A stretch of DNA of 64,000 nt, from the NCBI GenBank assembly GCA_044892505.1, contig CM097884.1, positions 29,202,001 to 29,266,000 of the forward strand, read 5' to 3'. Shown piece after piece: positions 5,550 through 40,648 of this stretch. Made by a program: the position numbers and the translations under genes. The notes under the pieces are model-generated. The model was given only the letters and a program-made list of their open reading frames with translations. It searched no databases and was not told the origin of the DNA. Positions within the stretch are counted from its first letter, which is position 1, and each line of letters opens with the position of its first letter. Origin of the DNA: Schmidtea nova (taxonomy: Eukaryota).

Positions 5550-5691
5550 CTCAGAGGGGTTAAGAACCAAGACTAATCAAAGGTCAAAAGGTTGTACATT
5601 ATACACGAGCTACTTGGTCGTGATCATGCCGTTCGCGACAATAAAAATAAAAAGTGATAAAAATTAATAAAAAGTTAATACGTATACAATA

Positions 5692-5850: not shown

Positions 5851-6594
5851 TAAAAGTTTTATAAAGTTCAGTTAAATTGTTTTTATTCTGGAACTTGACG
5901 AACAGTACTGCATTGATTGTTCCATTGCAAATTGATGATTTGTTTCTCGTTTTCTGAGTCGTCTTGGGGATTGTTCCGCTTTGGTTGACATAGTTGACAA
6001 TTCGTTTGGTAATAGAGTGGAGCGATTATGAGATGATTGGGTATGCTCCGTAATGTTTATCCGTTTGGTCTTGATTTGGATCATGTAATTCGGGTTTTTC
6101 GGATGTGACCGCTCGTAACTGGCCATTAGAAGTTCATCATTTGACTTTGTCTATTCTTTCATAGATTATCTGATCTCGATTCATTGGACGATTTTGGTTC
6201 TTGCTTCGAAGGTTTGATTTTTCTCTTGATTGGAGCTTTGTTTTAAGATTCCAGATAGAATTTTCTGGCTTCTTTTTCGCATTATTTCTTTTAATTGTTT
6301 CTTTCAAATTCTTTTGTTTTGACTTAGGTTTCTACTTCAGTAGTTAAATTAGCAACTTTTCCTTTCCACTTTTCTGGGTTGGATTGTTTTGATTTAATTG
6401 GCTTTCTGATTTGTCTGGTCTTGAAGTCTGATAATTTTTGTTGATGTTCGGTCTTTTTATTCTCTGTTTTTTCTGATTTACACAAATATTTTTCTGGCTT
6501 TCCGATTAATTCATTTTTTAATGGCAACTTTTCTGCGAACAAGTTTGACTTTAAATGATCTCTTTAATTTATTTCTACCAGTTTTTTGTTTTTG

Positions 6595-6627
<33 letters not shown>

Positions 6628-6650
6628 ATACAATTAATCATACTTTTATT
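6595..6650 (-). other. AATAAA followed by a genomic A27 tract downstream of the polyprotein stop
   Basis: tttatt at 6645-6650 and a T-run at 6595-6621 on the plus strand. Confidence 0.7.
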
Positions 6651-6806
6651 ATAATATATTTTGTACATTATTTACACTTCCTTTTGTTTGTTACACCAAC
6701 GTCTTCAAACACATTTTTTGATTTTTTGGTGTTTTTCATTATACAATTTTCTCATACTTTTATGATACTATATATTTTATACATTATTTACACTTTGTTT
6801 CGTTTG

Positions 6807-8746
6807 TTACACCAACGTCTCCTGAGGGCCGAAATGTAGGTTTCGCATTCCCCCATATAATTCATTTGTAGTTCGATATATATCTGCTTCTATTATTGAC
6901 GGATTTATCGTTGGTGGTAGTCCTTGCATCCACATTCCATTGAATTCTGATCCATTGCATATCTCATATTCGTCTTCCGTCTTTACTTCTTCTAAACTGA
7001 TTCCATATTCGAACTTCTCGATGCTTGGCCATTGTCTCTTTCTTTTCGTTTTTCTTTTACATCTTCCAGTGATTTTTGCATGTTGTGTGAGAATCAAAAC
7101 CAATATTGCGCCTATTATTCCGGCAGTTATCCATATCATTTTGATTGCTATTTTTGATTCCTCTACTGCTGCTGACATTGTTGTTGGAGATTCCGTTGTT
7201 GTTTGTACGATTTTGATCGGTCTCCCTCCTTGAATTATTCGTTCGGCTTCTTCCTCCGATATATATTTATTATAAACTGTTGGTTTGGTTGTTGTTAGTA
7301 TTTGATCTTCTATACTGAATTCTCTGGTATCGTCTACTCGTCTAGGTAATTTCGAAATAAATTGACATGTTGGATCTTCATTTAATTTTTTGTAGAGGCA
7401 TACCCGGTATTTGGTTCCTCGTTCCCATCCGGCTACATAATATTCCTCTTCTTCAATGAATGATTTTTCTTCTTTATTGCTCACACTTTTACACTTTTCT
7501 TGTTGTAGTTTTACTTCATAAATGCATATTCTAGCAATAAGATGTCCTTGTACGTTCTTGACTTTTATAATATCATTTTGAAAGAATTTTTCGGTTTCCT
7601 TTTGTATTTGGTTTGGAGTGATTGATATTTCTATTTCTTTTCTGTAACCTTTGACTATCGTTGGTTTTTCTGTTACAGTTATTGTTGCTCTCGGGAGTCT
7701 TATTGCTTTTTCATCCGGTTCTCTCCCGCTTTCTGTGCTTGTTATTATTTGTTCTGTCGTGGTGTGTTCTTGACAAATTGGGACGAAAGTTCTCCATATG
7801 CATATTAGATACGTTGTTTTTGATTCTAACTCTTTGATTATCATTTGCTCCTTTCCCTTTACTGACTGTTGATAACATTTGCTAGGGTTGTCAAGCCCAC
7901 TATTCATATCGACCTTTCTCCAACAAACCTTTTTGATTACTTCCTCGTGGTTGTTTATTAGTATTATTTCCGTGGATTTCGTTTCTACTATCAGAGGGTA
8001 ATACGTAGTTGTTCCACTGGTTGTTGTAGTTGTCGTTATGATTTCCTTGGTGAGTTTTTCTAGACATAGTTTTTGTGTCCATATTCTTCTTATGCATATC
8101 GTATAGCTTGTTCTTGGTTTCAATCCTGGTATTCTGAATTTTCCATTTTGGCCTGTCATTTGAAATTTACACGATAATTGTCTGTCCTTATTTTGCATAT
8201 GGATGGTTTTTATCCAACAAATTTGAGTTATAGGCTCTCTCACATTGTTTGTTACCATCATTTCTTTTTCTTTCACTTCTATTGTTGTTTTGTTCTGGAT
8301 CGTCATCATAACCTTTTTATCTTGTTCTTCTTCTTCGTTTTCTTCTTCATTTTCATCTATTGGGGTTTTTGTGACACTTTGTATTTTTTCTAGCTTGTTC
8401 CTCTCGTTTCCCATTTTCGTAATCATTTCTTTAGCTGCACAGATTGCTCTTATTTGATTTGTTCGATATATACATATTATATATATGTTGTTCCTGATTC
8501 GAGTTTTTCGATCTTTTGTTCTTCTCCTATTGCTAATGCTGTTCTTATGCATTTCTGGTGATCACTGACTCCATTTTTCCGTATTGCAACTGTACATATT
8601 TTAATTATTAGCTCTCCTTTGATATTCGTTATCCATATATTTTCTGTATCTGTAACTATTCTTGCCTCTGCTCTCCTCTGATCAAATATATAATCGATTG
8701 CTTTCACCCAATTCAACATTGTCAATAATATTGTCATAATTATTGT
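6807..8746 (-). CDS. C-terminal polyprotein module: signal peptide, four Cys-containing FN3-like domains, Thr-rich stalks and a TM (type I membrane protein); frameshift at ~8485
   Basis: TIIMTILLTMLNWVKA signal-like segment; FN3 F-strand motifs KLESGTTYIICIY, GLKPRTSYTICIR, ELESKTTYLICIW, GWERGTKYRVCLY; TM MIWITAGIIGAILVLIL (7090-7139). An extra TA in the ACATATATATAAT run joins the two track ORFs. Confidence 0.75.
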
Positions 8747-11270
8747 ATTTTTACCTGGATTTTTAAGTAGACATACCGTTCGATTTTCATAGTTGGAATT
8801 TTCTTGTTCATTCTTGTTCTCTTGTTCATCTTCGTTTCCGTTGTTTTTATTCTCCCATTTCTCACTGTTTCCGTGATTTCCGTGATCACTGTTATCATCA
8901 TTTTGCTGCTGTTCGTTGCTATCGTTGTCTTCATCGTCTGGTTTATCGTTTGATTTATCGTCATCGGGGTCGTTTAGATCACCCTCGGTTTCTTTTGAAA
9001 TGTCGTCCTCGACATTTATATCCTTTATTATTTCCCAATACAATTTGATAATTCTTTGTTCATCTAGTTTTATTTCACCCATTTTGCATTTCAATGTTCC
9101 AGCATCGTCGTGAAGATAACTCTTGTCTTTATTTTTGATCTTTTTTCGCCATTCTTTAACCAATTCAAGTAGTTTTTCTCTCTTTGTTTTTATTTTCATT
9201 TCTTCGTTTGGCTTGTTTGTGAATCTGAAATCTGGTCTTTTTAGTAGTGCTTTTGCTACTCTAGGTAATGTCCAATTTTCAATCAAAGCTCGCTCCATTA
9301 ACACGTTTTTATCATATTTGAACTCGTTGTTCACATTCATCAGTCCTTCTCCAGAGAGTGGATCTTTCCATTTTATCATTTTTGAAGCTACTATTTCATC
9401 TTTTCTTATCACTGCCCTTAATAATGGCTTTGGATTTAAACTCAGTATTTCAATGTCCTCTTGACTTGCTTTTGATAAAAGATACTTGGCTATTGTATAA
9501 TAAGGTGATCTGTAGACATATGATAATACAGTTTCATTGTTGTTATCCCTTTCTTTGATACTTGACCCTGTTCTTAATAACTCCTCGATTAAGTCTTTGG
9601 ACCCTCCTTCTTCTACCGCTAGCATTAATGGTGTTTGTCCTTTCCAATTTTTTATATTCGAGTGTTGTCCGCATCTTTCCATGAGTTTAATTATTTCCAT
9701 AGCTCTTTTTCCTTCTCCCTTCCTCAAGGCTACATTTAGCGGTGTTTCCTCGTTAAAATCAGTCATTGTAAATAATATTGGCATCCGCTCCTTGATTATA
9801 TCAATAACTTTTGGTGTTGCCTTTCCTCTGGCATAGTCATCTATTATCCGGTTTAGTCCGTTTATTATTTCGAATACGTGTTTGCCTTCTGTCCATTCTG
9901 GCATAATCTCTTTTGCTGTTTCTATTATCAGATCCATTTCTTTTATATGTTCAATTCTCGCATCATCCGTTATTTCTTGCTTAATTTGTAATGTTGGACT
10001 TCTCATCTTTGGTGCAAAGAATGTTGTATCTCCACAACATCCACATCCTTTACTCTTTCTAAGCATGCATATTTGTCTTGTCTGTGATCTGGTCATTATT
10101 CTCCTTTCCTCTGGTTCTTTTGTCGCAGTTTTTTCTACTCGTTTACATCTACACACGTTCACGTATATCGGTCGAACTAACGGATTGTTGACTAATTTTA
10201 CCCGGATGTTATTTTCGCTAACAAATATGACTTCATATGGTCCTTTTCCCGTTCTCTGTAATTTTTTCGCTGTTCCTGGGATGATTTCTGGTGTTTCGAC
10301 TATCACCCAATCACCTAGCTTGAACTGATTTTCGTGTACATTTCTCTTTTTGTCGTGTAGTTCTTTGTAGCTCTCTTGATTGAATCGTATATTCATACCT
10401 GCAACTTTCCAAATTTCTTGCATTCGCTCCTTGAATTTTGTTAAGTAATCGTCGATTTCCATATATTGTGATATTGGTGGTTGATATTCAAGATCCATTG
10501 GCATGTTACATTCTCTGCCGTACATCAATTTAAACGGACTCATTTTTGTTGCCGAGTGAATCGACATACGGTATGCCATTAGACATAGATTCACATATTC
10601 ATCCCAATCCTTTTGGTGTTTACTGACATAATTTGACATCATCTCAATCAATATTCCGTTAAATCTCTCCGTTTGTCCATTTGTTTGGGGATGATATGGT
10701 GAAGTTCTCAACTTAGCAATTCTGAAATAATTGGTAACTTCGTTGATGATCTCGCTCATAAAATTTGTTCCTTGATCGGTTAATATTTGTTTTGGTGTTC
10801 CATATCTACAACATACTTCTTCGACTAATATTTTGGCTATTGTTCTAGCTTTCTGATCTGGCATTGCAAATGCTTCTGGGAATTTTGTTAAGTAATCAGT
10901 TATTACTAATATATAAACATTTCCATGATTCGTTTCTGGTAATGGTCCTACTACATCCATTGCGATCATTGTCATAGGTTCTGGTGGAATTGGCATTGGT
11001 TTTAAAGGTGTTTTCATTTTACTGCCAGTGCTTTTTCGCGTTGCACATATTAAACAATTCCTAATCCATTCTTTCACATCTTCTCCAATATTTGGCCAGA
11101 AATACTTCTGTTTTAATCTCGCTTCCGTTTTCTTAGCTGACATATGTCCACCAAGTTTTCCATCGTGATATTGCATCAAGATGTCTTTCCTTCTACTTTC
11201 TGGTAAACACATGAGTCTTTTTTCTCCATCCATTGCTAATAACCAGCCTTTTTCGATTGTATATTTGTGC
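8477..11270 (-). CDS. Integrase (HHCC, DDE core, GPY) followed by ankyrin repeats and an acidic linker
   Basis: HDGKLGGH...CLIC zinc finger; MDVVGPLP, TDQGTNF, YHPQTNGQTERFN; GKGPYEV; ankyrins ETPLNVAL, GQTPLMLAV, NETVLSYV (~9450-9750). The frame stays open upstream of the ATG (YTIEKGWLLAM). Confidence 0.95.
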
Positions 11271-14200
11271 CTGTTTTCTCCATATGTTCCTTTAGTTGGC
11301 TGTTATGATCAAAGATTTTCATATCATTCTTATTCAAATATTCGATGATTAGTTTTAGCTCCTCATCTTCATTTTGTTCTTGTTGTAGTTTAGTGAAATC
11401 AATATCTTCTGCGATTATCATACATATTCGCCTGACATCTTTATCCATTAGTTCCTCAAACATAAATCTTGACATGCAATCCGCATTTGCATTCGCTTTC
11501 CCTGACTTGAACTTTATATATGGCGAATATTCTTGTAGCTGCATTGCCCATCTCATTAATCTGCTTGACGCTTCTTTGTGCTGGCCTAACCATACTAACG
11601 GTTGATGATCTGTTGTGATGTATATTTCGTGACCCCATAATAGATATTTGAAATGTTTAATCGCCTGAATGATTGCTAGCGCTTCTCTTTCCGTTACCGA
11701 GTAATTCTTCTCGTGTTTTCGAAAGGTTTTGCTGTAATATCCTATCACTCTTTCTCTCCCATCTTCATCCCATTGTCCTAGTACGGCTCCTGACGCGTAT
11801 CCACTTGCGTCGGTTGCTAATAGAAATGGTTTTTTGAAATCTGGGTGTACTAATATTGGCGATGAAATTAACTTGTCTCGCAACTCTTCAAATGCATTTT
11901 GTTGCTCTCTTTCCCAGATAAATGGTGTATCTTTCTTGACTAGCTCTTGTACAGGCTTTGCAATTCCGGCATAGTTTTTAATAAATTTCCGATAATAACC
12001 ACATAGTCCTAAAAATTCTTGTACTTGGGTTATGGTTTTCGGTATAGGACAATTTTTTATCTTTTCGATATTTCTTGGGTCCGGCTCTTTTCCTTTAGCT
12101 GATACAATGTGACCCAAAAAGGTAACTTTTGGTTTTGCCCAATCACATTTTGATGGTTTCAATTTTAATTTCCATTGCCTTAATCGGATGAATACGTTTT
12201 GGATATCTTGTAGATGTTGTTCAAACGTACCCGAGTAAATCAATAAATCATCAATATATACCATACATTGTTTTATCCCGTGAGTTACAAAATTCATGCA
12301 TCTTTGAAATGACGCAGGTGCATTAGTTAAACCAAATGGCATCTTCTTGAACTGGTACAGATCTTTTCCGATGGTAAACGCTGTTTTCTCTCTGTCCTCT
12401 TCTTTCACTTTAATCTGCCAGTAACCACTTTTCAAATCTAATGACGTGAAGTATGCTGCACCATGTAATGTTTGTAACATTTCGTTGATATCTGGTAACG
12501 GGTATGTATCTCTCTTGGTTACTGCGTTCAATTGTCGATAATCAATACAAAATCGTTGGGTACCATCTTTCTTTTTTACCATTACTACTGGAAATTGCCA
12601 TGGTGAACAACTTGGTTCAATCACATCTGCGTCTAACATCTTTTGCACTTCGGCTTCGGCCACTGCTTTCTGCGCCTCTGCTAGTCGATATGGTCTCAAT
12701 GTGATCGGTGTTTCGTCTGTTAGGGGAATAGTATGTTGAGTTACATCACTCGTTCCCAAGTCTAAATCTGATGCTGCAAAGATGTCTTTAAATTCTAACA
12801 ATACTGTTTTTAGTTTTTCTTTTTCAATCTCGTTTAAAATTTCACTGTCGATTACCCATAACTCTTCCACTTTACTCTCATCCTCTTGAATTTTAGGTAA
12901 TTCAATATTCATCATCGGGGTTAATTTTCCCAATCTCTCATTTTCGTAAATGATTTTGTCTTCCTCATCGAAATTGGTGATGTTGATTGGTATTTCGTTT
13001 TCTTTATTGACGTTCACTATTTCTCTTGCCAATGGTAACTCTTTTCTCATCTCAAAATTTTGATTTGGCTCAAATATCATTTCACCGACTGCCGTGTCTT
13101 TCACTTTGGTGAAACATATCATTTGCGTTCTTCCTGGTACGACAATTTTCTTTGAACACCTTACTTCCGTTTTCATTGAACAGATTTGTCCGCTTTTATC
13201 TTTCAATCTCATCGTACTCAAATCGATAACAATCTCCTTTAATAATTCTGGCATTAAGTCTGTACCAATGATACATGAGGCACCCAATTGTTTTATTACA
13301 GCTAAATAAGTAGACATCTCTACATCTTTATACTTAATATCTGACCATATTTTCCCAATAACTTTGACTGATTCTTTATTGCACGTGACCACATCCATTG
13401 GTGCTTCTTCAATGCAAGGCCATAACATGCCTGGTATCATATTCATGTTTATTGCTGATATATTTGCACCGGTATCTATCATTGCATCCATTTCAACACC
13501 GTTGATTTCAATGGTAATAGTAAGGGTTGGTCCAGCTGATGTTCTCATCATGGCTATTGTCATTGTTTCTAGATTTTTCTCTTCGCTTTGTGGTCTGTTT
13601 AGTATTGTTGGGTCTGGTCTGTTTAGTATTGCCGGGTCAATCATTGCCCAATTTGGTTCGTAATGTGCTGGGTAGAAATTTGGCATTGGTAACATTCGTA
13701 GTCCAGCTCGTGTTTTTTCTCTCACTGTTCCTGGTCTTTGTGGGTTAGGGTATGTCATTGGTGGTAAATTTTGACCTTCCCATTGTTTTGATTTTTCTGC
13801 TTCCCATATTGGTGCGGTACCATTTGATCCGGAGTTCGTTCCTCCTTGATTTCCTTTGTCATCGTTATCACTATCGTCATCATCCGAATCTTTCCTTCGG
13901 TTATCCCACCATCTTTTCCATCCACTACGTCTGGTTTCTTTATATTTCGTTCTCTCTGCTTCGTTTTTCATAATGAATCTAAATTTTCTACCGATCTCTT
14001 CGTCGGTTCCTTTCATCTTGGTCAGTATTCCAATTAACCTCTTTATTCTATGAATGTCTTTTGAATGCCCATGCAATACCATAGTTTTAGCCAAAAACGG
14101 TAGAAATCCAAGTGCCATTTTCCAATTGATTTGTCTCTCTCTTTTATAGATATCAAAACAAGCTAGCATCTGAGTTATAATAACTCTGACTATTTGAATA

Positions 14201-17200
14201 ATTAGGATTATCCCTAATATTCCTGCCATCATCTGTCCAAATACTAAGAATCTTCCCCACATGGCTTTCATCATATTATTGGTTGCGTGTTTAAAATGTT
14301 CTGGTGACAACAATAACTCGTAGTTCGGACTTCCCACGAAATTTGTTCCACCGGTTATGGCTATAATATTTGATAATACTGCTTGTCTTTGGGTTGGAAA
14401 TAGTATATGCTTTCTCGCTGCTTCTAAATCTGCATCTCTGTACACTCCACTGTGTGAAATATCTATGGGTTTAAATTCTATTTCCGTTGTTAACTCTGTT
14501 AATCCAAATCGTTTTGGTGCTGATACAATTTGCCGATTTGGAAAAACTACCCATTTTGCATTTCCCATGTCATACATTGGTCCATACGCATTACTGCAAT
14601 TGAACTGATGGGGTTCGTAATTTGGTGGATTTATTATTCTCGTTACTGCTTGTACAAATCGACTTCTTCCTTTGTAGAATATTTCCAATTCGTTAGTACA
14701 TCGGTTTTCTGGTATTCTTGGTCTTTCCGGTAGTCTTGCTATCTCCTTTTTGCATTTGTATGTATACATAACTTCTCCCACAATTCGACCAAAATGTCCT
14801 TCTTGCAGTGGTAATAGTGGTATTGCGTTATCTGGATTCGTTATAGCCATTGCTAATTTGGTTCTAAAAATTTCTCTGTTCAATAGACAATCGTTTTGTA
14901 TCAAATCATGATATACTTTCTCTGTTGTTGCCATACCTCTATGGTATAAGAAATCCATTTTATTATTAGCGTACAAATACGTTTTTATGTCCACTTTATC
15001 TGGTTTTGGTGTTGCTTCAGCTATCCCTGTTGTAGATAGGAAAATACCTTTGTAATTCGTTTTTATTACTAGTCTTCCGCATTTACTGACGGTTTCACCT
15101 TTTATGAATCTCATTCCTACTCCTGGATCTTTCGATATAATTGCTGTGGGTGTATTTACTAATTTAAGTCTTTCCGTTGTCTCTCTATGCTGGAATGTTC
15201 TTGTTCTTTTGAGCTGTTCCATTTCTTGTCTGGTTGAATCATCTTTGGGCTCGTCATAAACTTTGTCTAGTATTTCCTCGAATTCAGCTTCTTGTAATAA
15301 CATTAGTCGACATTTATTCGCATCTGCCTTATAAATCAATGTTGATGCACCGGTATTACACGAGGTATGTTCTGCAGAACAACTTGGGAATTTTCTCATT
15401 GATAGCGTGTCTGGATCAAAATATCCCGGATATGTTTCCAATTTCACTTGATACATATCTATTACTACTACATTGCTGACCACTTTTCCTAATAGAGTGT
15501 ATGCTCCTCCTTTACAACTTCCGTCTGGTTTATTGACGTATCCAGCTGCATAAACTCTTGTTATTTTAATTGCTCCTGGTTGGGCAGCTATTATTATGTT
15601 TCCTGCTAACGATATCCGTTTTGAGGTAAACGCTTCATTGCACTTTTCGCTATCCAATGATATTACTGTTGATTCCATTCCTGGTTCGATAATTGTTGAA
15701 TATGAATATTGTCCACAGTAATACGCGAATAATTTTCTCGTAACCGTGCATTCTCTTATTTCTGCTTTGATAAGGTCTGATTCCTGATACACGTTGTAAC
15801 TTATTTTATTCACAATTTGTTCCAACTTTTTCGGCGTGGCTTGTTTACAATCTTCCGTATCTTTTAATGAATATTTCTCGCTAAGCTCGATTTTGTCACA
15901 ATCGTATACCACAAACGATGTTGCTCCCTTTATGCACATCATCCAAATTAATATTGTGGTCAATATCGCATTCATACTCTTCCCATATGTTCTTTGATCG
16001 CGAAAATTCATTGATCCTTCGAATTCTGTTAATAATTCTCTCAACTTTACTTGCATGGTTTCCGTTTGATCTATTTTATCTACTGAGTTGATGAATGTTT
16101 TCCAACCTCCTTGTTTCATTACATACGGCTCTATCAGTTTTTCAATGATTTCCGTTATTGTGAATATATGACCATTTGAACTGTATCTGGGTGTCCTCCG
16201 TTTGTACAAGACGATCATATTGTACATTAAATATGCCAAGCTTACTAAATATTTTGCTGGTTCGTTCGTGTTGTTTGTCAGTTTTTCGATAATTTCTTTT
16301 ATTTCTGCAGGATTTCTCAACGTCATTCGTACTTTTCCTTCGATGATTTTTGAGATTATTGGTTTAATTGTTATCCACAGTTGTTTGGCTTCTTGTTGGA
16401 TATGGTCTCTTTTTAACGCTCTTTTTATTTCTGGGTTTGCCAATGCAAGCATATCAGATACTAATTCATTTATCCATCGGATTCCTTGTTCGGTTATTGG
16501 TGTATTACCTTTCACTTGATTTGCAACTGACACTAGTTTGCTTACTTTTAGTTGTAATTGTTCCGTCTTGCTTGTTGGTTTTGGATTTCTTTCTGTTTGA
16601 TCTTTCGCCGGCCTCCCTCTTGGGCGTTTATCTATCATCGTTCCAGCTTCTCGTCTACTTAGCTGATTATTCGCGATTTCTCTCGATGCTGTCGCTCCTC
16701 TATCTGTGATCCAATTACTCCATTCGTCAGTTGTAGAATTTTCTCTTGCTCGTTTTTGTACTTTTTCTCGGTCGGTTTCATCATCGGTTGCTGTGATTTT
16801 TTGCCGTTTTACCCAAGGAATTCTCTGGTCATCGGTTGTTGTTTCATTTTCTATATTTGAGAATAAATCCCCTGAGTAAAATGCTGTTTCATCGTTTTCT
16901 CTATTCGCAATATTTGTCAGTTCTTCTAATACGTCTTCATCAGTTGTTTCGACAATAATTTCACTTGCAGCTTCCGGTATTTCTGGTTCGTCTAAGTTTC
17001 CGAACAATTTTCTCATTTGAGTTCGATTTCCCTCTTTTCTGATTAGTTCATTGCCTGCAATTTTAGAAACAGTTAAATGATTACTGGTTCCGATTCGTAT
17101 CGGGGTTACACCAATTTCTATCTCATCATCGAGTGATCTTCCTTCGTACTGTAGATGAAATGGTAATTCAAATGGCAGTTTCTTTTTAATCTCTTTTATT

Positions 17201-20200
17201 TTCATGGTTGCTAATACTTCCATTTCTTCCTTTCCAAAGTCTGGAAAATGGATTTTTAATCCACATTTTTGTGGTTCGTCACTTTCCCATTCCATTTGCC
17301 TCCATTTTCTTTTAAGCTCATCGAATTGTTCTGGATACCAAGTGTATACTCGTCCATATTCCTCGATTTCCTTCACGAGCATTGTCAATGTTAATCTATC
17401 CTTGCCATTCTCGAGAATCCATTTTGCTAATTCATCTACCGCTCTTCGTTGATTTTTGGCACCTTTTTCTAAAATATCGATTAACTGTCTACTTTTTTGG
17501 GCTTCAGTTCTCTCTAATACTTCAGGGTCCATCAGTTCATCCATATCTACAGGACGTAATCTCGAGGTTGTTTCTTGTTTTCTCAGCACGCTGATTCTGG
17601 GAATTGTCAACTTTTCCCTTACGTCTTCCTCAATTTTGCATGAAACATAAATATCTCCTTCGCTTTGATATCGAGATTTTTTATCTAACAGCAGGTGTTG
17701 CAAGATAAATTTTGGCGCTCCTGATGCTATATTTTCCTCTTTTCCTGGTTTATGATAGCAGCTGCTGAGCTTTTCTGGATAAATTTCTTCACTATGACCC
17801 TTCTCTGAATTGTAGGATGATCCTATAGACAATGTTACTTTTTGATCGAACGGCCATGTTAATTCCTCGTCATTGATCCCTTTACAGATGATATAAAATA
17901 ATGACGTATGAGTTCCTTTACCAACTCCATCTCCGTTTGGATAAATTCTCATTTTTAATTTATATCCGCCTGGGTAAGTGTAAAATTGTGGGCTTGTCAA
18001 TCGCGTTACTTCGCCCTCCTTTGCTGCTCTCACTTTATCTGCCCAATTTGAAATTCTCCATTTGAATGGTGCAAGATATTTCTCCTCGCATATGTTTTCG
18101 TCGACTTCCAAAGGTTTCCCAGTTATTTCTGATGGTTCGTAAATCTCATGGGTTTCCTCATATAACAGTTCCTCAGGTATTCGTTCTGGTTCGCATGTTA
18201 CCCATCTATCCTCCACATTTGGTTGTTCCCATCTGTATCGATTTTCTAGTTCTATCCATGTCTTTATCCACGGCGTTGGTTTACAATCTCCATAATGAAG
18301 AGGTTTTATTTTCCCCTTTATTTCATTATCCGCTCTCCAAAAATTATATAAATCGATTATCTGGTCTAATTTTCCGACCATTTTTCTTTTAAATCTCCTC
18401 ACGTGACCATCGTCTTTCTCTGGTTCGTCCATTGCCCATATTTTGACTGTTTGACCGTCTTCCCAAATACCCAGTTTATATAAGGGTGTCTGATCATCCT
18501 TTTCTAATACATGTTTATTGTACACGATTATTACATCTTCTATTAATCCGTCATCACTATTTTGTTTCACGTTATGCATAATTTTCTCATCGATTATCCG
18601 TATGAATTCGTCTACCGTACAATCTGGTTCTATTTCAATTGTTTGTTCGTCTCCACTTGGCAACGTTAGATTGACTTTTATCGTTTCCGCTCGATTCTTT
18701 GATCTCTGATAGCCGCCATATTGACTTATTAATTCGATTGCTCGTTTATCATCTAATCTCACTAACTCGGTATCTCGTACGAACTCTACAAATCTCTTCA
18801 TTGATGCTGGTCTTCTTCTATTTATACTATCGATCATTTTCCTCGTCTGGTCTATTGCTTGTGTCGAAAGCATTAATCGATTTTCCCATATTGCTTGTTC
18901 GGCCAATTTTAATAATTTTGGTCCGATTTCGTAATCGTATCTATCTCCAATTTTTGTCAGTAGTTTCATCACTGTTTCTTCAATCGCGTTCTTCTTTAAC
19001 GTTAAGGTATTCAACTCGTTCGGCCATATCATAGCATCTACTAGATGTATTCCCTTTTTGATTCGCCAATTATTCAAATAAAGATAATCGTTTTTAAAAC
19101 TGCTACCCATTTTCTCTTGCATCCAGTCATATAATGCGTTAGTATTTGGGTCGTTTATTTTTATTCCTAATACATCGATTTCGGGGTGGTGTACTTCTAT
19201 CGTATACTCTTGAGTTGGCGTTTCTTTTAATTGCTTCTTGTATTCCGCTATTGAGTTGTTCCACTCTGCGGTGAATACTTGATTTTCTACCTGATTTGCT
19301 TGGGTGACTTCCTTCATAAACTTCTGATATACTTTTTCATCAATAAACTCCCGATTCTTCATGGCTAATTCAACCTTGCCTGTTACTTCTCCGATGATAT
19401 TCCAATCGTCTTCACTTAACAACGCGTTGCTTGATGTTTCGGTATCACTTTCTTCGCTAGCCAAAGGTGCTTTTAAATCGTTGTTTTCCTCACTTGACGG
19501 AAATAAGTCACCTCCTAAACTACTTACTTCGCTAATCTCGTCTTCTGGATCTGTTTGATCATCATTTCGCATTCTCATCATATTTATTTTATACACATTT
19601 TTAAGATCTCTTTCTTTTTCCTTTTGCGTTCTTGCTTGTGACCACTTCATTGTTGCGTCCCATCGTTTTCTTTTCAGTGCTTCTACTTCGTCATCTGTCA
19701 ATGTGTTATTCGCTTTTCGAATTGAAGCTTCAATTTTCTGCAGTAGTGCTCGTTGAAGTCGGTTTCTGGTTATAATTTTTTGAGCTTTCTTTGTGATCTC
19801 TTCAACTTCTTCAGTGCTAGTTTTTTTCAATTTCTGATTTAACTTTCCTACTTCATTCGCGACAATAGTTGTTATTTTCTGTTCTATTTCCTTCGCTTTT
19901 ATTTTCACTATTTCTTCCAATTCTTCACAGGTGTTGCAAACATTCCCACTGTCTCTTTTTTCTTTTCTTCTTTGATTATATTCTTGAATGAATATTTTCC
20001 TTTCTTCTTCGTTCATTGATTTCATTGAAACTTCGAATTCTCCATCTTTTTCATTAATCTCTACATCTGGTAACTCTGTTATCATTTCCTTCACTTTTTC
20101 TATTACATTCTTCTGCAATTTACTCATTTCCTCTGGATCTTCTTTATCTTCGCTTTTAACTCTCATCATGTTAATTTGCCTTGTATTATTTCCTCGATTT

Positions 20201-21480
20201 TTCCATCTCTCCTCAATTTCCCGTGCTTCCTCCAACTGAAGTCTCTGCCATTCTGCTTGTTGTTTCGTTTGATTTTTGTTCGTCCTTAACTTGTGAGGCT
20301 CGGTGATTTGCAAAGCATTAATTCTTGGCTGTTGTGGTTGGCTGACTGTTGTTCGTTCGATTAATTCCCTCAGTTGTTCAAGTTCCTGCATCACATTGAT
20401 TTGTGGTGTTTGATTTTGGTTTTCGGTTCGCTGTGGTGCATTGACTTGGTTTGGGCATTCTCTCGCCATATGTCCAGGTTGTTGGCATTTGAAACAATTG
20501 GCGTTTCTTCTAAAATTTCCTCCATTATTGTTATTTCTTACGTAGTAATTTCCTGCACTAGCATTTACGGTTCTGCATACATTTTCTGTATGACCTTTTC
20601 TACCACAACTTTGACATGTTTTAGTGCTATAACATTCATGACTCAGATGTCCAGATTTTTGACAAATGTTACATATTTTGCTGGTGAATAAATTGTTATT
20701 CCCGTAATTATTCCTATTACTATACGCGTTGCTGTAAGTATTGTTATTTCTGTCTGTATTGTTTCGATTACGGTTGTCCATATTTGTATTTTGATTTCTC
20801 ATTGGAGTTTTGAACATTTGTTGCGCTCTTGGTATAAATTGATTCATCATTGGAGTCGTGTTGCCTGGTTGATTACCTTCGTTGGTCGTATTGGTTGTTA
20901 ATTTTGTTGTTGGTTCCGCTGTCAAAACAGCAACTGTCAATGGTGGTTTTAAATACATTTCGCATCGATTCGCGATTGTCAGTGCTTCCTCCAACGTTTT
21001 TGGTGCCTGACATCCGATATTTGCACGAATATCATCTCTTCTGAGTCCACTCAGAAATACTCCTACCAATCCTTCATCTTTTACTTTTTCCTCGCCGTAG
21101 GCATCTCTTGCCATACGTTTTAATTCGCACGCGAACATCGCATTGGATTCGTTGGGTTTTTGTTTTCTGTGGAAGAAATCTAACATTTTCTGATTTTCTT
21201 CTTTCGCCACTCCAAAGGTTTTTTCTAAAAAGTCCTTGATTTCTTTCCATGTTCTCAATTTTTCATCATCTCGTCTTGCCTCTAAATAAACATCTTGTGC
21301 GCTTTCTTTTAAATATAGCGGCATTCGTTCTCGGGTGGCTTCGTCTGACCAGCGACAGATCGTAATATAAACCTCAAATTCCTTTAGGAAGGTTTGTAAT
21401 TTACTGATATTACCATCAAATGGTTCTCCACGGAATTTTTCTTTAAAATCTCCAAGGTTGGCTGCTGACGTGGTACTCAT
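11236..21480 (-). CDS. 3414-aa Gag-accessory-Env-PR-RT-RNaseH portion of the giant polyprotein
   Basis: Uninterrupted ORF with gag CCHC x3, DTG protease (13468-13476), RT ([10 protein letters not shown], YIDD at 12247-12258) and RNase H ([23 protein letters not shown]). Confidence 0.97.
   Translation of the reverse strand: [3414 protein letters not shown]
11480..12720 (-). other. RT and RNase H domains, Ty3/Gypsy type
   Basis: [56 protein letters not shown]; RNase H TDASG/E/D residues. Confidence 0.97.
13230..13530 (-). other. Retropepsin aspartic protease domain
   Basis: [23 protein letters not shown] ... CIIGTDL. Confidence 0.95.
14075..15975 (-). other. Chuvirus-like (gB-related class III) envelope glycoprotein domain
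   Basis: Signal peptide [20 protein letters not shown], then FVVYDC; Cys-rich ectodomain; [16 protein letters not shown]; membrane region [28 protein letters not shown] plus a second hydrophobic stretch, as I recall for chuvirus-type glycoproteins. Confidence 0.75.
16085..16560 (-). other. Bcl-2-like domain 2
   Basis: BH2-like [11 protein letters not shown] at 16093-16125, preceded by a hydrophobic core helix ([16 protein letters not shown]) and a BH3-like helix ([11 protein letters not shown]). Confidence 0.7.
17065..17270 (-). other. Ubiquitin-like domain 3
   Basis: [15 protein letters not shown]...MKIKEIKKK...[12 protein letters not shown]...I..G..NHLTV follows the beta-grasp pattern. 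Confidence 0.6.
17630..18069 (-). other. TRAF-type MATH domain
   Basis: FKWRISNW...[55 protein letters not shown]...G.PKFI...GDIYVSCKI. Confidence 0.92.
18430..18681 (-). other. Ubiquitin-like domain 2
   Basis: [26 protein letters not shown]...[31 protein letters not shown]. Confidence 0.75.
18705..18990 (-). other. Bcl-2-like domain 1 (divergent)
   Basis: BH3-like LTKIGDRYD (18934-18960), BH1-like SMKRFVEFV and BH2-like ISQYGGY, in the expected order and spacing. Confidence 0.55.
18995..19208 (-). other. Possible ubiquitin-like domain 1
   Basis: [19 protein letters not shown]...[10 protein letters not shown]...[30 protein letters not shown]; beta-grasp-like pattern only. Confidence 0.4.
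20450..21480 (-). other. Gag capsid-like domain and three CCHC zinc knuckles
   Basis: [64 protein letters not shown]. Confidence 0.95.
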
Positions 21481-22031
21481 TTTTATCCCTTCTTTCTCCT
21501 CGTCCGAGTTTAAAAATTCTGTGTCGTTCTGGTTAATCTGTTCAATATAATTCCTTTCTACTTCCTCGCTGGTATCAACAGATAAACTTTCCGATGTTGC
21601 AAACTCTGTTTGTTCGGATGAAGGCCTTCTGTTGTGTATTCTTGAAGATTTCGCAGCTTTTCTCTCTCGGTTTTCTAGTAAACTTGGATCTTTGTCTAGA
21701 TTTGGATCTTTGTCTTGATTTTTACGCTTTAACAGCCGCTCTGCGATACTCTCAATATCCTCTGTTTTGTCAATTGTTGATTATTTCTCTTACGGTTAGA
21801 TTCTCTTTTATATTTTTCTTCTTTTACTTCTTTCCTCTTCAATGAGTCTTCTTTTTCTTCTTTTTCTTCCTTTATTCCTTTTTTCAAAACTGATTCACTT
21901 GAATTTGATGGTTTTGGTTTTGGTTTGATGTTATCTAAAAATATAAAAAAAATGGATCCATTTATAATTAATTTGTTCGTCATTTTAGGCTTCTTCCTCT
22001 TTCCCACCGTTCCGACATCGTCGCTACTCAC
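21481..22031 (-). pseudogene. N-terminal Gag extension with a candidate 97-nt intron
   Basis: The gag frame is open 100 codons upstream of ATG 21480 (to TAA at 21781-21783). Donor GG|GTGAGT at 22031; acceptor TTTTTAG|AT at 21935. Confidence 0.5.
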
Positions 22032-22439
22032 CCCCCGTAATTTAGGTGGATTTTAATTTATCTATACCTCGTAATAATTATCTATGTAGGGTCGTATGGT
22101 TTACCTGGTACCTTCATCAATAATAATAACGATAATAATAATAATAATACTAATTATAATAATAATTTGCACAAAATTTCACGTAACATAACTCTAATAC
22201 TTCGTTTCAAAATCATGATTTTCACAAATACTTTATTTATTTATTGTCGTCGTTTTCTTTCAGATTTTCTAATGTTTCCAGCTAGCTTTTTATAATATTT
22301 CTTAACGGATGTTACAATTCTTACGCTGTCATTTTATCCTATTTCTCCTAGATGTACCTTCTTTAATCTCTTTTTACTAACTCCCATTTTCTCAAAATGC
22401 ATTTTATTTCTTCTACGAGCTCTCAAAATTTCTCACATG

Positions 22440-23530
22440 CATGAATTTCTAAATATTTTTGGATTCTCAAAGTCTCTCATACATGAACTCTCAAAGTTTC
22501 TCAATTATCTGGACTCTCAAAGTCTCTCATACATGAACTCTCAAAGTTTCTCAATTATCTGGACTCTCAAAGTCTCTCATACATGAACTCTCAAAGTTTC
22601 TCAATTATCTGGACTCTCAAAGTCTCTCATACATGAACTCTCAAAGTTTCTCAATTATCTGGACTCTCAAAGTCTCTCAATTATCTGGACTCTCAAAGTC
22701 TCTCCCAGAGCGCTCAATTATCTGGACTCTCAAAGTCTCTAAATTACCTGGACTCTCAAAGTCTCTCAATTATCTGGACTCTCAAAGTCTCTCAATTATC
22801 TGGACTCTCAAAGTCTCTCACATACATGAACTCTCAAAGTTTCTCAATTATCTGGACTCTCAAAGTCTCTCACATACATGAACTCTCAAAGTTTCTCAAT
22901 TATCTGGACTCTCAAAGTCTCTCACATACATGAACTCTCAAAGTTTCTCAATTATCTGGACTCTCAAAGTCTCTCACATACATGAACTCTCAAAGTTTCT
23001 CAATTATCTGGACTCTCAAAGTCTCTCACATACATGAACTCTCAAAGTTTCTCAATTATCTGGACTCTCAAAGTCTCTCACATACATGAACTCTCAAAGT
23101 TTCTCAATTATCTGGACTCTCAAAGTCTCTCACATACATGAACTCTCAAAGTTTCTCAATTATCTGGACTCTCAAAGTCTCTCACATACATGAACTCTCA
23201 AAGTTTCTCAATTATCTGGACTCTCAAAGTCTCTCACATACATGAACTCTCAAAGTTTCTCAATTATCTGGACTCTCAAAGTCTCTCACATACATGAACT
23301 CTCAAAGTTTCTCAATTATCTGGACTCTCAAAGTCTCTCACATACATGAACTCTCAAAGTTTCTCAATTATCTGGACTCTCAAAGTCTCTCACATACATG
23401 AACTCTCAAAGTTTCTCAATTATCTGGACTCTCAAAGTCTCTCACATACATGAACTCTCAAAGTTTCTCAATTATCTGGACTCTCAAAGTCTCTCACATA
23501 CATGAACTCTCAAAGTTTCTCAATTATCTC
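22440..23530. repeat. Tandem array in B's leader, 50-52-nt unit, about 20 copies
   Basis: Unit catacatgaactctcaaagtttctcaattatctggactctcaaagtctctca, a dimer of two related 26-mers. Confidence 0.97.
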
Positions 23531-23693
23531 GGCCGTCTTCAATTTATTCTCTTCATACTATTTAATCACTCATTTTCCTATTCTCAATAAATTCGCTGTT
23601 ACTGACTGTTTTTCTCAGATTGTTCTACTACTTCTCAATTATGAATTCATCAGGGTAAAATCGTCGAAATTCACTTTCTACTCTTTCGACTTT

Positions 23694-23960
23694 CTAGAAT
23701 CTGCATCTAATTTTCTCAGCAGCTTTCTCTTTATTAATGTTACTGCCTTCTACCTCAGTGTACCAATCATGCCTTGGCAAACTGGTGTATAAGACGAACA
23801 TTACGGGTTTAGCCCTTTCACCTAATTCAAAATCGTAAAATAATCGCGTTAACTCGTTTCGCAATTTGTGATGATCAGTCACAAACGAAATTTCGCCAAC
23901 ATATGCGATGGATATCCTATTCTACTCTCTTTCCTCAAGGTGATCAAGTTTTTCCCCGTT
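23694..23960 (-). pseudogene. Degenerate leader ORF of B, apparently homologous to 36245-36439 in A
   Basis: Manual translation gives ...ISIAYVGEISFVTDHHKL vs GTIAEAGKFLRVTDHHTI in A. Confidence 0.45.
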
Positions 23961-24692
23961 TGTTGTCTGCTAATTTTAACAACAAAAATATTGACGTACT
24001 ATCTTTTGATAGCTCTGTTAAAATTTGGCGTACTATCTTTTGATAGCTCAGTTATGAATTTGTGGACTATTTTCTCGTTTCTACTCAGACACTCATTTCT
24101 CACTGTATTTCGGAAGATTCCCTTATAAATCAACTTCTATAACGCTACTAATGGCTCGTCCTAATACATACATATTTATATATATAATGATCAGTATAAT
24201 AATGATAATCAATATAATAATGGTAATAAGGAAGATTATAGTAATGAAATTCGGTTCAATATAATAATTATGAGGAGGATTTATAATAAAGAAAATTCAA
24301 AAAGAAAAGAAAAGTAACTTTGTCACAAATTCCCATTTTCCTAATGTTTGATTTTTCGGCATTAGCCGTTACTTGTTATGTTTTTTCACGATTCTCAGTT
24401 ATTAATTACTTAGTGTTCTGTGTTTATTTAATTTTTTCAACGGTTTGGAGTATTGGATGATCAACGAAGTTCAACACGGCTAAAACGTTTATTTCGAACG
24501 ACATTCTTTATGAACAAAATACGACGATTTTCTCATCAATTGTCTGTTTGCAGATTACGCATCTCTTTATTTCTCTAGAGCACGGCTGGCAATAACACAA
24601 ATGCCCACATGGCATGAATAAAATGTTCGCTTCTTTTTGTCGACAGATATAGCATCTTTCGAACGAATCGATCTGTTGATTTATCGATCTCT

Positions 24693-24992
24693 CTAGCTTG
24701 TCCGTGATTTTATCGATTTTTTTTCAATCCATTCTTGTATTTTCAGATTAAAACTCGGATTATTCAGTCGCAATCGTTGTAATTCATAAATCGTTTCTAA
24801 CGAAATATCGTTTGTTGTTCCTGTAATTCCTGCAATCACTATTAGGTTCTCAGGTTGTGGTCTAGGATTCAACAATAATTCATCTTTTATTCCCTTTACT
24901 CGTTCGAGTTTCTCGCTCAACACCTGCAATGGGTCATTTTTAAAATCGAAAAACAACTCGATTCGTAGTAAAATATGCTCAATCGATTCCAT
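24693..24992 (-). CDS. Small leader ORF of unknown function (99 aa)
   Basis: Protein-like composition; the ATG is immediately preceded by an acceptor-like TATTTTAG. Confidence 0.35.
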   Translation of the reverse strand: MESIEHILLRIELFFDFKNDPLQVLSEKLERVKGIKDELLLNPRPQPENLIVIAGITGTTNDISLETIYELQRLRLNNPSFNLKIQEWIEKKSIKSRTS

Positions 24993-26226
24993 CTAAAATA
25001 TTCATGATGACTGGTGTTTGTAACTTTTTGAATTAACCATTCATTATAATTTGAACGAAAAAAAATAAATAATAAAAACTTCAACAGCTATGTACACGAA
25101 TTTTTATAATTTTTTATATTTTTTTGTATTTTTTCAAAACTACTATTAACAGAATAATCAGCCATTTTTATACATATTTTTTTTTTTATATTTTTATATT
25201 TTTTATATTTTTATAATTTTATAATTTTCTCCATTCGTCCATATTCGATATTTTCGAATAAAATACTCAGCCATTAAGTACATAATTTTTATGATTTTTT
25301 ATATTTTTTTTTTAAATATACTAATATTCTCTACATAGAAATAATTAAACATTTATTTACACAATTTTTTCATGATTTTTACACTTTTTATCAATTTTAA
25401 GATAATTATATTTTTTATTTGTAGTATTCGCAATTTTTTGGTAATTTTTCGTTTACTGAAATCAATTTTTGTGTCTTCGAATATTTATTCTCTAAGTGAT
25501 TCGCGTGAACTCTATCCCATATCTTATGGTCATATAACATCTCCTTTTACTAAGTTCCTAATTTTGTGCATCTCGAACTTTCATATTTGTGTTAAGGCTC
25601 ACGCTTCCTTATTTGATTCTATATCATTATATTCGTTTGTTAAGTCGTTGCCAGATATTATTTTATGATTTCATAAGATTTTTGAATTATTCCCGATTTC
25701 GATTCCCGAATTGAGTCGCGATCAACATTCCAATATCACCATGCATCATTTTGACTTCAACAATCTAATTTTTCGCAACATTCAAACTTCAAACTTATTA
25801 GATTATATCATTCATTCTCTACTGTATCATTATATCAATTAAAACAATTAATTCACGCATTGATCCATTTTCGTTGTTATTTCTTTCAGACCCGATACTT
25901 TCCATGTCCTTCTTTGCCAATAAAATAAAATTACAGGGGTCATACTTCAGTCATTCTCAATCAAACAACATAACACCAATATCGCTAGTAATAATAATGT
26001 CATCCACAGTAACACTCATGATAATAACAGTNNNNNNNNNNNNNNNNNNNNNNNNNNNNNNNNNNNNNNNNNNNNNNNNNNNNNNNNNNNNNNNNNNNNN
26101 NNNNNNNNNNNNNNNNNNNNNNNNNNNNNNNNNNNNNNNNNNNNNNNNNNNNNNNNNNNNNNNNNNNNNNNNNNNNNNNNNNNNCTAGTAGTACTATTAG
26201 TAATAATAACTAAAATGATAATAATA

Positions 26227-26257
<31 letters not shown>

Positions 26258-27209
26258 TGCGCGTTACACGGCAATTTACCCAATATATTTCTTATATATT
26301 ATTACGTAATAATTATAATAAAAATATAATAAATCCGTCTTATTTTTATATTATTTGACCAAATTATTGTTTCTACTGTTAAAATGACAATAATACTAAT
26401 CCTGATACCTATATTATCCTTATTACTCGGTGTTACTGCTTTCTTGGGTCAAAATTCCGAAATTTCTTCAATCTTTTAAATTTCTTAGCGGCGATTTTCT
26501 ACACTTTTTGCGGATTCCGGTGTCATATTCTATCTTTCGAGGTATTTTTCACTTGCCGGTACTGTGTACCCACTTTCTACGCTCTATGGACGTTATTTGA
26601 ACAATTTTACGATTATTGGTTGTTCGTGGGGTTCATTTGTCGCGATTTGGTATTTTGACTATTTTACCCGTGATTTTCTTAGACTTTTGGCCCATTCCGG
26701 CTCAACTTTTTATCCTATGCTATGTTTGATGTTTATTTGTATTAAAGACACTTATTCTACGCTCTGTTGTTATTATTCATTCTCAATTTCAATCGTTGGC
26801 TGTTCGTGGGGCTTAAAGATCGTTTTTTCGGCTTAACTTTTTTATTCGCTTTCGCGGTGATTTTGATTCGGAACTTTTTATTTTCTAAATTTTTTCTAAA
26901 TTCAAAATGGTACTTAAAACAATATTCTCTACTTATAATAGTATTGTCAATAATAATAATAGCCATAATAATTATTATTNNNNNNNNNNNNNNNNNNNNN
27001 NNNNNNNNNNNNNNNNNNNNNNNNNNNNNNNNNNNNNNNNNNNNNNNNNNNNNNNNNNNNNNNNNNNNNNNNNNNNNNNNNNNNNNNNNNNNNNNNNNNN
27101 NNNNNNNNNNNNNNNNNNNNNNNNNNNNNNNNNNNNNNNNNNNNNNNNNNNNNNNNNNNNNNNNNNNNNNNNNNNNNNNNNNTAATCCTAATAATATTAC
27201 TTATAATGG

Positions 27210-38638: not shown

Positions 38639-38644
38639 AATTTA

Positions 38645-40638: not shown

Positions 40639-40648
40639 AATTTTTATA

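What the first reader, a model, noticed from the sequence alone, without database searches (positions are those of the whole stretch)
16085..18990. Two Bcl-2-like domains, the upstream one with a textbook BH3 motif
Seen: domain 2 has BH2-like YVMKQGGWKTF. Domain 1 has LTKIGDRYD (LxxIGD), SMKRFVEFV in the BH1 position and ISQYGGY in the BH2 position. Both lack the NWGR signature, as many viral Bcl-2 folds do. Inference: apoptosis or innate-signalling modulators; domain 2 abuts the Env signal peptide, which could act as its tail anchor.
Basis: partly seen in the sequence, partly recalled or inferred. Interest (0 to 1): 0.72.

Follow-up and report, generated by a model that had tools for sequence, protein, structure and literature searches.

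The report
One Bcl-2 domain, not two
A giant retrovirus-like jumping gene with the published 'Burro' layout carries one domain related to the cell-death regulator Bcl-2 just ahead of its envelope protein (already in print), while the proposed second Bcl-2 domain upstream is likely only a helical spacer whose BH3-like motif is missing from its sister elements.

Summary
All quoted motifs are present, inside a 3,414-aa gag-cargo-env-pol frame (minus strand, 11236-21480) of a 29.6-kb Ty3/gypsy element with the published Burro layout of planarians. Domain 2 (16081-16563) is a diverged Bcl-2 relative. A profile of it and its relatives finds Bcl-xL at E 5e-6, its BH1-to-BH2 spacing is 52 against 45-52 in host genes, and it has a hydrophobic central helix. 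This domain, at this place, is in print (PMC6431247), and the scan noted it before on other DNA of this genome. Domain 1 (18691-18990) is not supported. LxxIGD and the GG-aromatic motif are absent from 8 of 8 sister-family copies, the spacing is 29-30, there is no hydrophobic core helix, and no profile links it to Bcl-2. The BH3-like 12-mer is real and kept within the family, but such patterns arise in 3-8% of shuffles. Both AlphaFold models were too poor to decide. A signal-peptidase-type site is conserved in 6 of 6 sequences checked, 45 residues past BH2, so the Env signal peptide likely anchors domain 2 on the ER (untested). Known system; the new half of the claim fails.

The parts
1692..44464 (-). 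Giant Ty3/gypsy LTR element with Burro-type layout; 29.6 kb once a nested 13.2-kb LTR element (27210-40385) is set aside; TG...CA ends and a 4-bp target duplication
40649..44464 (-). 5' LTR (about 3.8 kb)
   Evidence: 99.7-99.8% identical to the 3' LTR over the unmasked stretches; ends
1692..5508 (-). 3' LTR
11236..21480 (-). 3,414-aa frame: Gag, CCHC knuckles, cargo, Env, protease, RT, RNase H. This copy's frame is broken near 11,240-11,300 and near 8,480-8,550; many other copies lie in one open frame of about 4,990 codons
18991..19218 (-). Conserved 76-aa module (aa 755-830) directly before 'domain 1'; looks ubiquitin-like by eye, not confirmed by any search
   Evidence: 33-39% identity to sister families; no significant PDB or Pfam match
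18691..18990 (-).
18937..18972 (-). BH3-like 12-mer VMKLLTKIGDRY (aa 837-848), specific to this family
   Evidence: LxxIGD in 40 of 40 sequences of this family that cover it; 0 of 12 identities in 3 of 3 sister families
18427..18687 (-). Ubiquitin-like stretch 1 (aa 932-1018), weakly supported
   Evidence: Pfam FERM_f0, OTU1_UBXL, PI3K_rbd at E 0.01-0.08, all below cut-off; ubiquitin variants at E 0.4-1
17632..18066 (-). MATH/TRAF domain (aa 1139-1283); absent from the sister families aligned
   Evidence: PF21355 E 1.6e-23, PF22486 E 3.4e-23
17053..17553 (-). Conserved helical module (aa 1310-1400) and ubiquitin-like stretch 2 (aa 1405-1476), at the place of the published Ubi2/SUMO-like motif
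   Evidence: 32-41% and 50-53% identity to sisters; the Ubl label comes from its place in PMC6431247; no Pfam match here
16594..16629 (-). AT-hook-like RGRP motif before domain 2, also seen in sister families
   Evidence: PF02178 E 0.083, below cut-off
16081..16563 (-). Domain 2: diverged Bcl-2-family domain (aa about 1640-1800); BH1 position reads EPAK (aa 1740-1743), BH2 reads PYVMKQGGW
15916..15987 (-). Likely internal signal peptide of Env and tail anchor of domain 2 (aa 1832-1855)
   Evidence: hydrophobic stretch; small residues at -3 and -1 in 6 of 6 sequences
14161..15915 (-). Env: mononegavirus/gB-type fusion glycoprotein with C-terminal membrane helix
   Evidence: PF24664 E 4e-69
11527..13524 (-). 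Protease, RT, RNase H
6807..11233 (-). Integrase with ankyrin repeats (8477-11233) and a final frame with a weak fn3 match and a membrane helix (6807-8552)

Best explanation
This is a recently inserted, high-copy gag-env-pol retroelement whose polyprotein holds one diverged Bcl-2-family domain (domain 2) before Env, and that domain is likely left tail-anchored on the ER by the Env signal peptide, where it would help keep the host cell alive, while 'domain 1' is likely a helical spacer between ubiquitin-like modules with a chance BH3 look-alike. Shown: the element's anatomy, domain 2's homology to Bcl-2, the conserved signal-peptidase-type site, purifying selection over the whole cargo, and the loss of domain 1's motifs in sister families. 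Inferred: (1) the hydrophobic stretch at aa 1839-1855 sends Env into the ER and is cut behind S1855; (2) the element's own protease cuts at recurring R/Q-I-N/S-M/V-M/L junctions, one at about aa 1296; (3) this frees a roughly 560-aa cytosolic protein (helical module, Ubl, acidic linker, AT-hook, Bcl-2 fold, anchor); (4) because the BH1 Gly is replaced while the following basic residue is kept, the groove probably binds host Bak/Bok-type or signalling partners in an altered way rather than as Bcl-xL does.
For: Domain 2: profile A3 (window plus 9 relatives) ranks Bcl-xL or Bcl-2 in 60 of 60 rows shown, best E 4.9e-6, over helices 4-8. Profile A5, built only from the window and 6 copies picked by Gag similarity, gives 55 of 55 PDB matches in Bcl-xL/Bcl-2, though weak (best E 0.2), and matches host Bcl-2 genes by hhalign (prob 62.5, E 7.3e-5, 70 columns). 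A3 against host genes gives prob 94, E 1.1e-7. 7 of 10 members of A3 hit PF00452 at E up to 1. Smaller relatives carry a PF00452 hit over the cut-off at the same place before Env. BH1-BH2 spacing is 52 in 4 of 4 against 45-52 in 7 host genes, and the most hydrophobic 15-mer scores 1.43-1.70 against 1.33-2.05. dN/dS is 0.05-0.08 in 3 of 3 sister pairs. Domain 1: the G-D of the BH3-like motif and the GG-aromatic are kept in 0 of 8 sister rows; at 20-23% identity it is the least conserved of the modules other than the acidic linker; spacing 29-30 in 4 of 4 and hydrophobic maximum 0.21-0.59 in 5 of 5; 0 of 10 and 0 of 18 PDB matches are Bcl-2; no Bcl-2 Pfam hit in 9 members; hhalign prob 0.2 against host Bcl-2 and against domain 2. 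Signal site. Layout in print: PMC6431247 section 7.
Against: The window's own domain 2 hits neither PF00452 nor any Bcl-2 chain by itself. Three rows of A3 were picked by a Bcl-2 search, so searches are partly circular. Its N-terminal half (BH4/BH3) is aligned only by position. No confident fold was obtained for either domain (pLDDT 48.9 and 39.1). The hydrophobicity test is imperfect: two Pfam-positive element Bcl-2 domains score only 0.74-0.99. Domain 1's BH3-like 20-mer ranks 1 of 3,395 windows against six host BH3/helix-3 segments, and the sisters' equivalent ranks 41-108 of about 3,313, much like domain 2's own helix 2. The motif is kept in 40 of 40 covering sequences and in one contig about 88% identical. 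The domain 1 helix is under purifying selection. Cleavage, topology and anti-death activity are untested.
Confidence: 0.72

Rival explanations
1. Domain 1 is not a Bcl-2 fold, but its LxxIGDxY helix is a working, family-specific BH3 ligand (a short linear motif gained by convergence) that binds host pro-survival Bcl-2 proteins or the element's own domain 2.
For: It has the four hydrophobic positions plus the acid that PMC9171138 names as essential (passages). It is the best BH3-like window of the polyprotein. It is kept in 40 of 40 covering sequences, and in an 88%-identical contig only the third hydrophobe changes, conservatively (read by hand). BH3 motifs can arise convergently (PMC9171138).
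Against: It arises in 3-8% of shuffles of this one polyprotein, and its score (2.2) is below the top chance windows in two sister polyproteins (6.8, 6.2). The i, i+4, i+7, i+11 hydrophobes are those of any amphipathic helix, and the sisters keep the helix with other residues. The whole cargo, acidic linker included, shows shared pN/pS of 0.04-0.18, so retention does not single out the motif. PMC9171138 warns that BH3 patterns have little predictive value. A pro-death ligand is hard to square with an element that depends on its host cell's survival (inference).
Confidence: 0.1
2. Both domains are Bcl-2 folds, domain 1 being a shortened, highly diverged copy like the poxviral Bcl-2-fold immune modulators.
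For: The motif order BH3, BH1, BH2 is right. A Pro 13 residues after the BH3 Leu is invariant in domain 1 and matches a Pro in three host segments. Viral Bcl-2 folds can lose all sequence signal (recalled). No confident fold excludes it.
Against: The BH1-BH2 distance is about 21 residues short, leaving no room for helix 6. The would-be helix 5 carries invariant E, R and D. A conserved beta-rich module fills the place where helix 1 should be. No profile signal in five comparisons. The best model, though poor, draws one 58-residue helix.
Confidence: 0.05
3. Domain 2 keeps the Bcl-2 fold but no longer binds BH3 helices; it acts as a scaffold or signalling decoy together with the TRAF, Ubl and ankyrin modules, or serves Env biogenesis.
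For: The BH1 W-G positions read P-A in the window, D-N or equivalent in sisters and K-D in family F2. PMC8998228 argues that loss of this Gly makes a working groove unlikely (passage). The neighbouring cargo is signalling-type. Domain 2 has no recognisable BH3 of its own.
Against: The basic residue of NWGR and the BH2 motif are kept across families with only 17-33% identity. A Burro1 IAP is reported to block apoptosis in stem cells (Lee et al. 2026, known only through PMC13465017), which makes an anti-death role plausible for the cargo.
Confidence: 0.3

Closest known systems
Burro1-4 / GYPSM1 giant Ty3/gypsy elements of dugesiid planarians (PMC6431247, section 7 read whole, figure not seen; Grohme 2018 and Jurka 2007 known only through it)
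   Same: About 30 kb; one polyprotein of about 4,900 aa (4,893 from Met in a second copy, against 4,873 published); Gag with CCHC knuckles, MATH/TRAF, a Ubl between MATH and BCL2, a BCL2-like domain directly before an in-frame mononegavirus-type Env, PR-RT-RH-IN, ankyrins. Sister families here have 5,140-codon frames without MATH, like the published Dugesia element.
   Different: No BIR match in the three coding frames scanned; in this genome a BIR-RING frame was seen on a related element without RT or Env. No sequence comparison with named Burro entries was possible. The paper mentions one BCL2 motif only and does not mention a tail anchor in the section read.
Bcl-xL / Bcl-2 family (PF00452)
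   Same: Domain 2: helices 4-8 align, BH2 P-[YW]-x4-GGW, BH1-BH2 spacing, basic residue of NWGR, C-terminal membrane helix.
   Different: No NWG; no recognisable BH3 or BH4; anchor about 45 residues past BH2 and likely an ER signal peptide; part of a polyprotein. Domain 1 shares only an isolated LxxIGD.
GAG-ENV-POL errantiviruses with HSV/gB-type Env in flatworms, nematodes and bryozoans (PMC13524379, passages)
   Same: Gene order and Env class.
   Different: The text search of that paper found no 'Burro', 'bcl' or 'ankyrin'; the cargo is extra here.
Poxviral and herpesviral Bcl-2 folds (recalled, not from a call)
   Same: Captured Bcl-2 fold with eroded BH motifs.
   Different: Domain 2 keeps a clear BH2 and its best matches are cellular Bcl-xL; no viral Bcl-2 is among the 60 rows shown or the 55.

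Membership tests
Bcl-2 family: domain 2 | Profile homology to Bcl-2 proteins | tested here: met
   7 of 10 members hit PF00452; the window sequence alone does not
Bcl-2 family: domain 2 | BH2 motif | tested here: met
   PYVMKQGGW; GGW invariant in 10 of 10 rows
Bcl-2 family: domain 2 | BH1 NWGR signature | tested here: not met
   EPAK in the window; only the basic residue is kept; NWDR in relative L023
Bcl-2 family: domain 2 | Hydrophobic central helix 5 and BH1-BH2 spacing near 51 | tested here: met
   1.43-1.70 and 52 in 4 of 4
Bcl-2 family: domain 2 | Own BH3 motif in helix 2 | tested here: not met
   rank 556 of 3,395 against host BH3 segments; no L-x-x-x-G-D
Bcl-2 family: domain 2 | Eight-helix bundle | tested here: inconclusive
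   single-sequence model pLDDT 48.9, generic helical matches
Bcl-2 family: domain 2 | C-terminal membrane anchor | tested here: inconclusive
   hydrophobic stretch and -3/-1 site present; cleavage and topology not shown
Bcl-2 family: domain 2 | Binds BH3 helices and regulates mitochondrial permeabilisation | not testable with these tools
   needs binding and cell assays
Bcl-2 family: domain 1 | Profile homology to Bcl-2 proteins | tested here: not met
   hhalign prob 0.2 against host Bcl-2 and against domain 2; no Bcl-2 among PDB and Pfam matches
Bcl-2 family: domain 1 | Conserved BH3, BH1 and BH2 motifs | tested here: not met
   G-D and GG-aromatic in 0 of 8 sister rows
Bcl-2 family: domain 1 | Hydrophobic central helix and BH1-BH2 spacing near 51 | tested here: not met
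   0.21-0.59 in 5 of 5; 29-30 in 4 of 4
Bcl-2 family: domain 1 | Eight-helix bundle | tested here: inconclusive
BH3-only ligands: aa 837-848 | Four hydrophobic positions plus conserved acid | tested here: met
   V837, L841, I844, D846, Y848 (definition in PMC9171138)
BH3-only ligands: aa 837-848 | Binding in a Bcl-2 groove | not testable with these tools
   needs a peptide-binding assay
Burro-type elements | About 30 kb, single polyprotein near 5,000 aa, env in frame between gag and pol | tested here: met
Burro-type elements | MATH, Ubl, BCL2 and ankyrin cargo in the published order | tested here: met
Burro-type elements | Sequence identity to named Burro1-4 | not testable with these tools
   no relative found in the protein collections

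The most novel reading that the evidence does not exclude
This family's polyprotein carries a two-part death switch: an ER-anchored Bcl-2-fold protein made by reusing the Env signal peptide, plus a separately released fragment with a newly evolved BH3 helix that docks in that groove or in host Bcl-2 grooves. A retroelement would then encode both a Bcl-2 and its own BH3-only regulator.
Probability: 0.08. Interest if true: 0.7.

Novelty: new member of a known kind. Interest (0 to 1): 0.2.

Why it matters
Burro elements are abundant in planarian genomes and one is reported to protect stem cells through a captured IAP. A Bcl-2 domain kept under purifying selection in several families of this genome gives a second, testable anti-death or signalling arm, and anchoring by the Env signal peptide is a neat untested mechanism. 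The domain itself is published, and the new claim, a second Bcl-2 fold with a real BH3, does not hold up. The value here is mostly a corrected annotation.

Full report
Setting. The finding lies on the minus strand inside one 3,414-aa frame (11236-21480). Pfam gives Gag, CCHC knuckles, MATH/TRAF (E 1.6e-23), a mononegavirus-type fusion glycoprotein (E 4e-69), protease, RT and RNase H, followed in two further frames by integrase, ankyrins and a weak fn3 match. LTRs of 3.8 kb at 1692-5508 and 40649-44464 are 99.7-99.8% alike, with TG...CA ends and a 4-bp target duplication; a 13.2-kb LTR element is nested at 27210-40385. A search of the own genome with domain 2 gave 895 candidates, of which 150 were scored, all 97-100% identical, many in open frames of about 4,990 codons. 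A second copy is 29.1 kb with a 4,893-aa frame. This copy's frame is broken twice, downstream of the finding. The layout Gag-MATH-Ubl-BCL2-Env-PR-RT-RH-IN-ankyrin matches the Burro/GYPSM1 elements of planarians as described in PMC6431247 (section 7 read whole; figure not seen), which names a BCL2-like motif between a Ubi2/SUMO-like motif and Env. The host is therefore likely a dugesiid planarian (inferred from layout only).

Observation. All quoted motifs are where stated. In 1,000 shuffles of the element's three frames, LxxIGD appeared in 5.9%, the four-hydrophobe BH3 pattern in 3.2% (with GD) or 7.6% (with G/A/S-D), and the loose BH2 pattern in 1.6%; the pattern demanding a small residue at the second position is not met (patterns recalled).

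Relatives used. No relative was found outside the genome, so I took them from inside it. A PF00452 search (149 matches) gave host-type Bcl-2 genes (8 used: L013-L016, L018, L020, L021, L032) and two smaller element families, F2 (L022, L025) and F3 (L023), in which the hit passes the cut-off and lies between an Ubl-like stretch and Env. A search with a Gag elsewhere in the window, blind to Bcl-2, gave sister families with frames up to 5,644 codons. Nine were fetched; they fall into four groups 66-87% identical to each other, align to the window over aa 11-1077 and about 1305-2500, and lack MATH.

Domain 2 is a Bcl-2 relative. Alone it finds no Bcl-2. It aligns pairwise with F2 and F3 (0 and 4 of 1,000 shuffles reached the score). 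The ten-row profile A3 ranks Bcl-xL or Bcl-2 in all 60 rows shown of 200 matches, best E 4.9e-6, over Bcl-xL residues 122-198, and matches the host alignment at prob 94; three of its rows were chosen by a Bcl-2 search. The seven-row profile A5, without them, still gives 55 of 55 matches in Bcl-xL/Bcl-2 (best E 0.2, BH2 region only) and prob 62.5, E 7.3e-5 against host genes. Seven of ten A3 members hit PF00452, the window's not among them, so at least four Gag-picked sisters do. The W position of BH1 lies 52 residues before the BH2 Trp (hosts 45-52), and the central helix is hydrophobic. NWG is replaced and the following basic residue is kept. dN/dS among sisters is 0.05-0.08. The single-sequence model was too poor to use.

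Domain 1 is not supported. The sisters align to aa 826-930 without gaps. LTKIGDRY faces AKEANMCF-type sequence, with 0 of 12 identities in three families; ISQYGGY keeps one Gly only. The segment is 20-23% identical to sisters, against 34-39% for its two flanking modules and 30-34% for domain 2. The proposed BH1-to-BH2 distance is 29-30, the would-be helix 5 carries invariant E, R and D, and no 15-mer exceeds hydropathy 0.59. Profiles find no Bcl-2 in the PDB (0 of 10, 0 of 18 matches), in Pfam (9 members), or against host genes and domain 2. The AlphaFold model (pLDDT 39) draws one 58-residue helix and is inconclusive.

Results against this reading. The BH3-like 20-mer is the best of 3,395 windows against six host BH3/helix-3 segments, although its score (2.2) is below the top chance windows in 3 of 3 sister polyproteins (6.8, 3.3, 6.2); the sisters' equivalent ranks 41-108 of about 3,313. 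Among 40 copies taken from the 150 plus the window, 40 cover the motif and all 40 keep LxxIGD; 17 have K to R. In one contig about 88% identical (run X4, depth 7.6) the listed differences leave L, G, D and Y intact and change I to V (read by hand). Shared variants give pN/pS 0.13 for domain 1, the same as domain 2, but every module, the acidic linker included, gives 0.04-0.18. Two Pfam-positive element Bcl-2 domains score low on the hydropathy test (0.74, 0.99). A BH3 review (PMC9171138, passages) says both that BH3 motifs can arise convergently and that such patterns have little predictive value. I put a working BH3 at about 10% and a second Bcl-2 fold at about 5%.

Mechanism. A hydrophobic stretch (aa 1839-1857) lies about 45 residues after BH2. 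In 6 of 6 sequences checked, small residues stand at -3 and -1 of a homologous site four residues before the first Env Y/F-D-C, as signal peptidase requires (rule recalled). Env would enter the ER and the upstream part would stay cytosolic, held by the signal helix (inferred). A recurring R/Q/H/K-I-N/S-M/V/A-M/L motif lies at module borders in four families and may mark the element's protease sites (inferred); one at aa 1296 would put domain 2 in a product of about 560 aa and domain 1 in a different product with MATH. Planarians use Bak/Bcl-2-dependent cytochrome c release (PMC8998228, passages), and a Burro1 IAP is reported to guard stem cells (Lee 2026, seen only as cited in PMC13465017, passages). 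An anti-death role is thus the most likely, but PMC8998228 notes that losing the NWGR Gly argues against a normal groove, so a scaffold or signalling role is a real rival (30%).

Novelty. The Bcl-2-like domain before Env is in print, and five earlier notes of this scan report it, with the anchor idea, from other places in this genome. A look-up for a second Bcl-2 domain or BH3 motif in earlier notes found none. PMC13524379 (passages) covers gag-env-pol elements of flatworms without mentioning this cargo. Grohme 2018 and Lee 2026 and their supplements could not be read and may bear on prior annotation. Verdict: new member of a known kind; interest 0.2.

Noticed in passing
G000:C1:24183917-24208865 (L058-L063) and G000:C1:80818849-80844083 (L064-L069): A roughly 25-kb LTR element without RT or Env, with near-identical 4.2-4.3 kb LTRs, carries separate frames for a BIR domain with a RING-like end (399 codons), a MATH domain, and a protein sharing aa 1280-1482 and the protease with the window's polyprotein but lacking the Bcl-2 domain. 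The BIR search gave 1,295 candidates. The IAP may ride on a non-autonomous partner in this genome.
   Followed up: partly
window 27210-40385: Nested LTR element, LTRs 100% identical over 1,742 bases, 4-bp target duplication, Gag 44% identical to the host element's, no pol seen; other copies have frames of about 1,022 codons.
   Followed up: partly
window 54643-55908 and about 58496-63740 (+): Gag of a sister family (80-88% identical to the 149 other scored matches, many in 5,140-codon frames) followed by pieces 82-97% like the LTR, in the opposite orientation: probably a deleted relative.
   Followed up: partly
G000:C1:411007190-411021078 (L038-L040) and G000:C1:280908154-280922848 (L042-L044): Compact 14-15 kb relatives (F2, F3) keep Gag, one Ubl-like stretch, Bcl-2 and Env-pol but no MATH or ankyrin; their Bcl-2 domain is closer to the canonical one (NWDR in F3). 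The Bcl-2-before-Env module may be the oldest cargo.
   Followed up: partly
polyprotein aa 361, 387, 436, 632, 1296, 2642, 3352: Recurring I-N/S/C/A-M/V/A-M/L/I motif at module borders, also in sister families: candidate protease cleavage sites.
   Followed up: partly
window 1692-5508 against G000:C1:157660001-157663450: The two copies are 98.8% identical inside but only about 87% in the LTR pieces that align, suggesting LTR exchange between subfamilies.
   Followed up: no
window about 40610-40648 (minus strand): Sequence just inside the 5' LTR resembles a tRNA-Pro primer-binding site (resemblance recalled); the nested element has a similar one.
   Followed up: no
window 45948-47981 (-): 677-aa hAT transposase frame with BED finger and dimerisation domain.
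   Followed up: no
window 22410-23636 and 34610-35973: Tandem arrays of 52 and 56 bases in the leader regions of the two elements.
   Followed up: no
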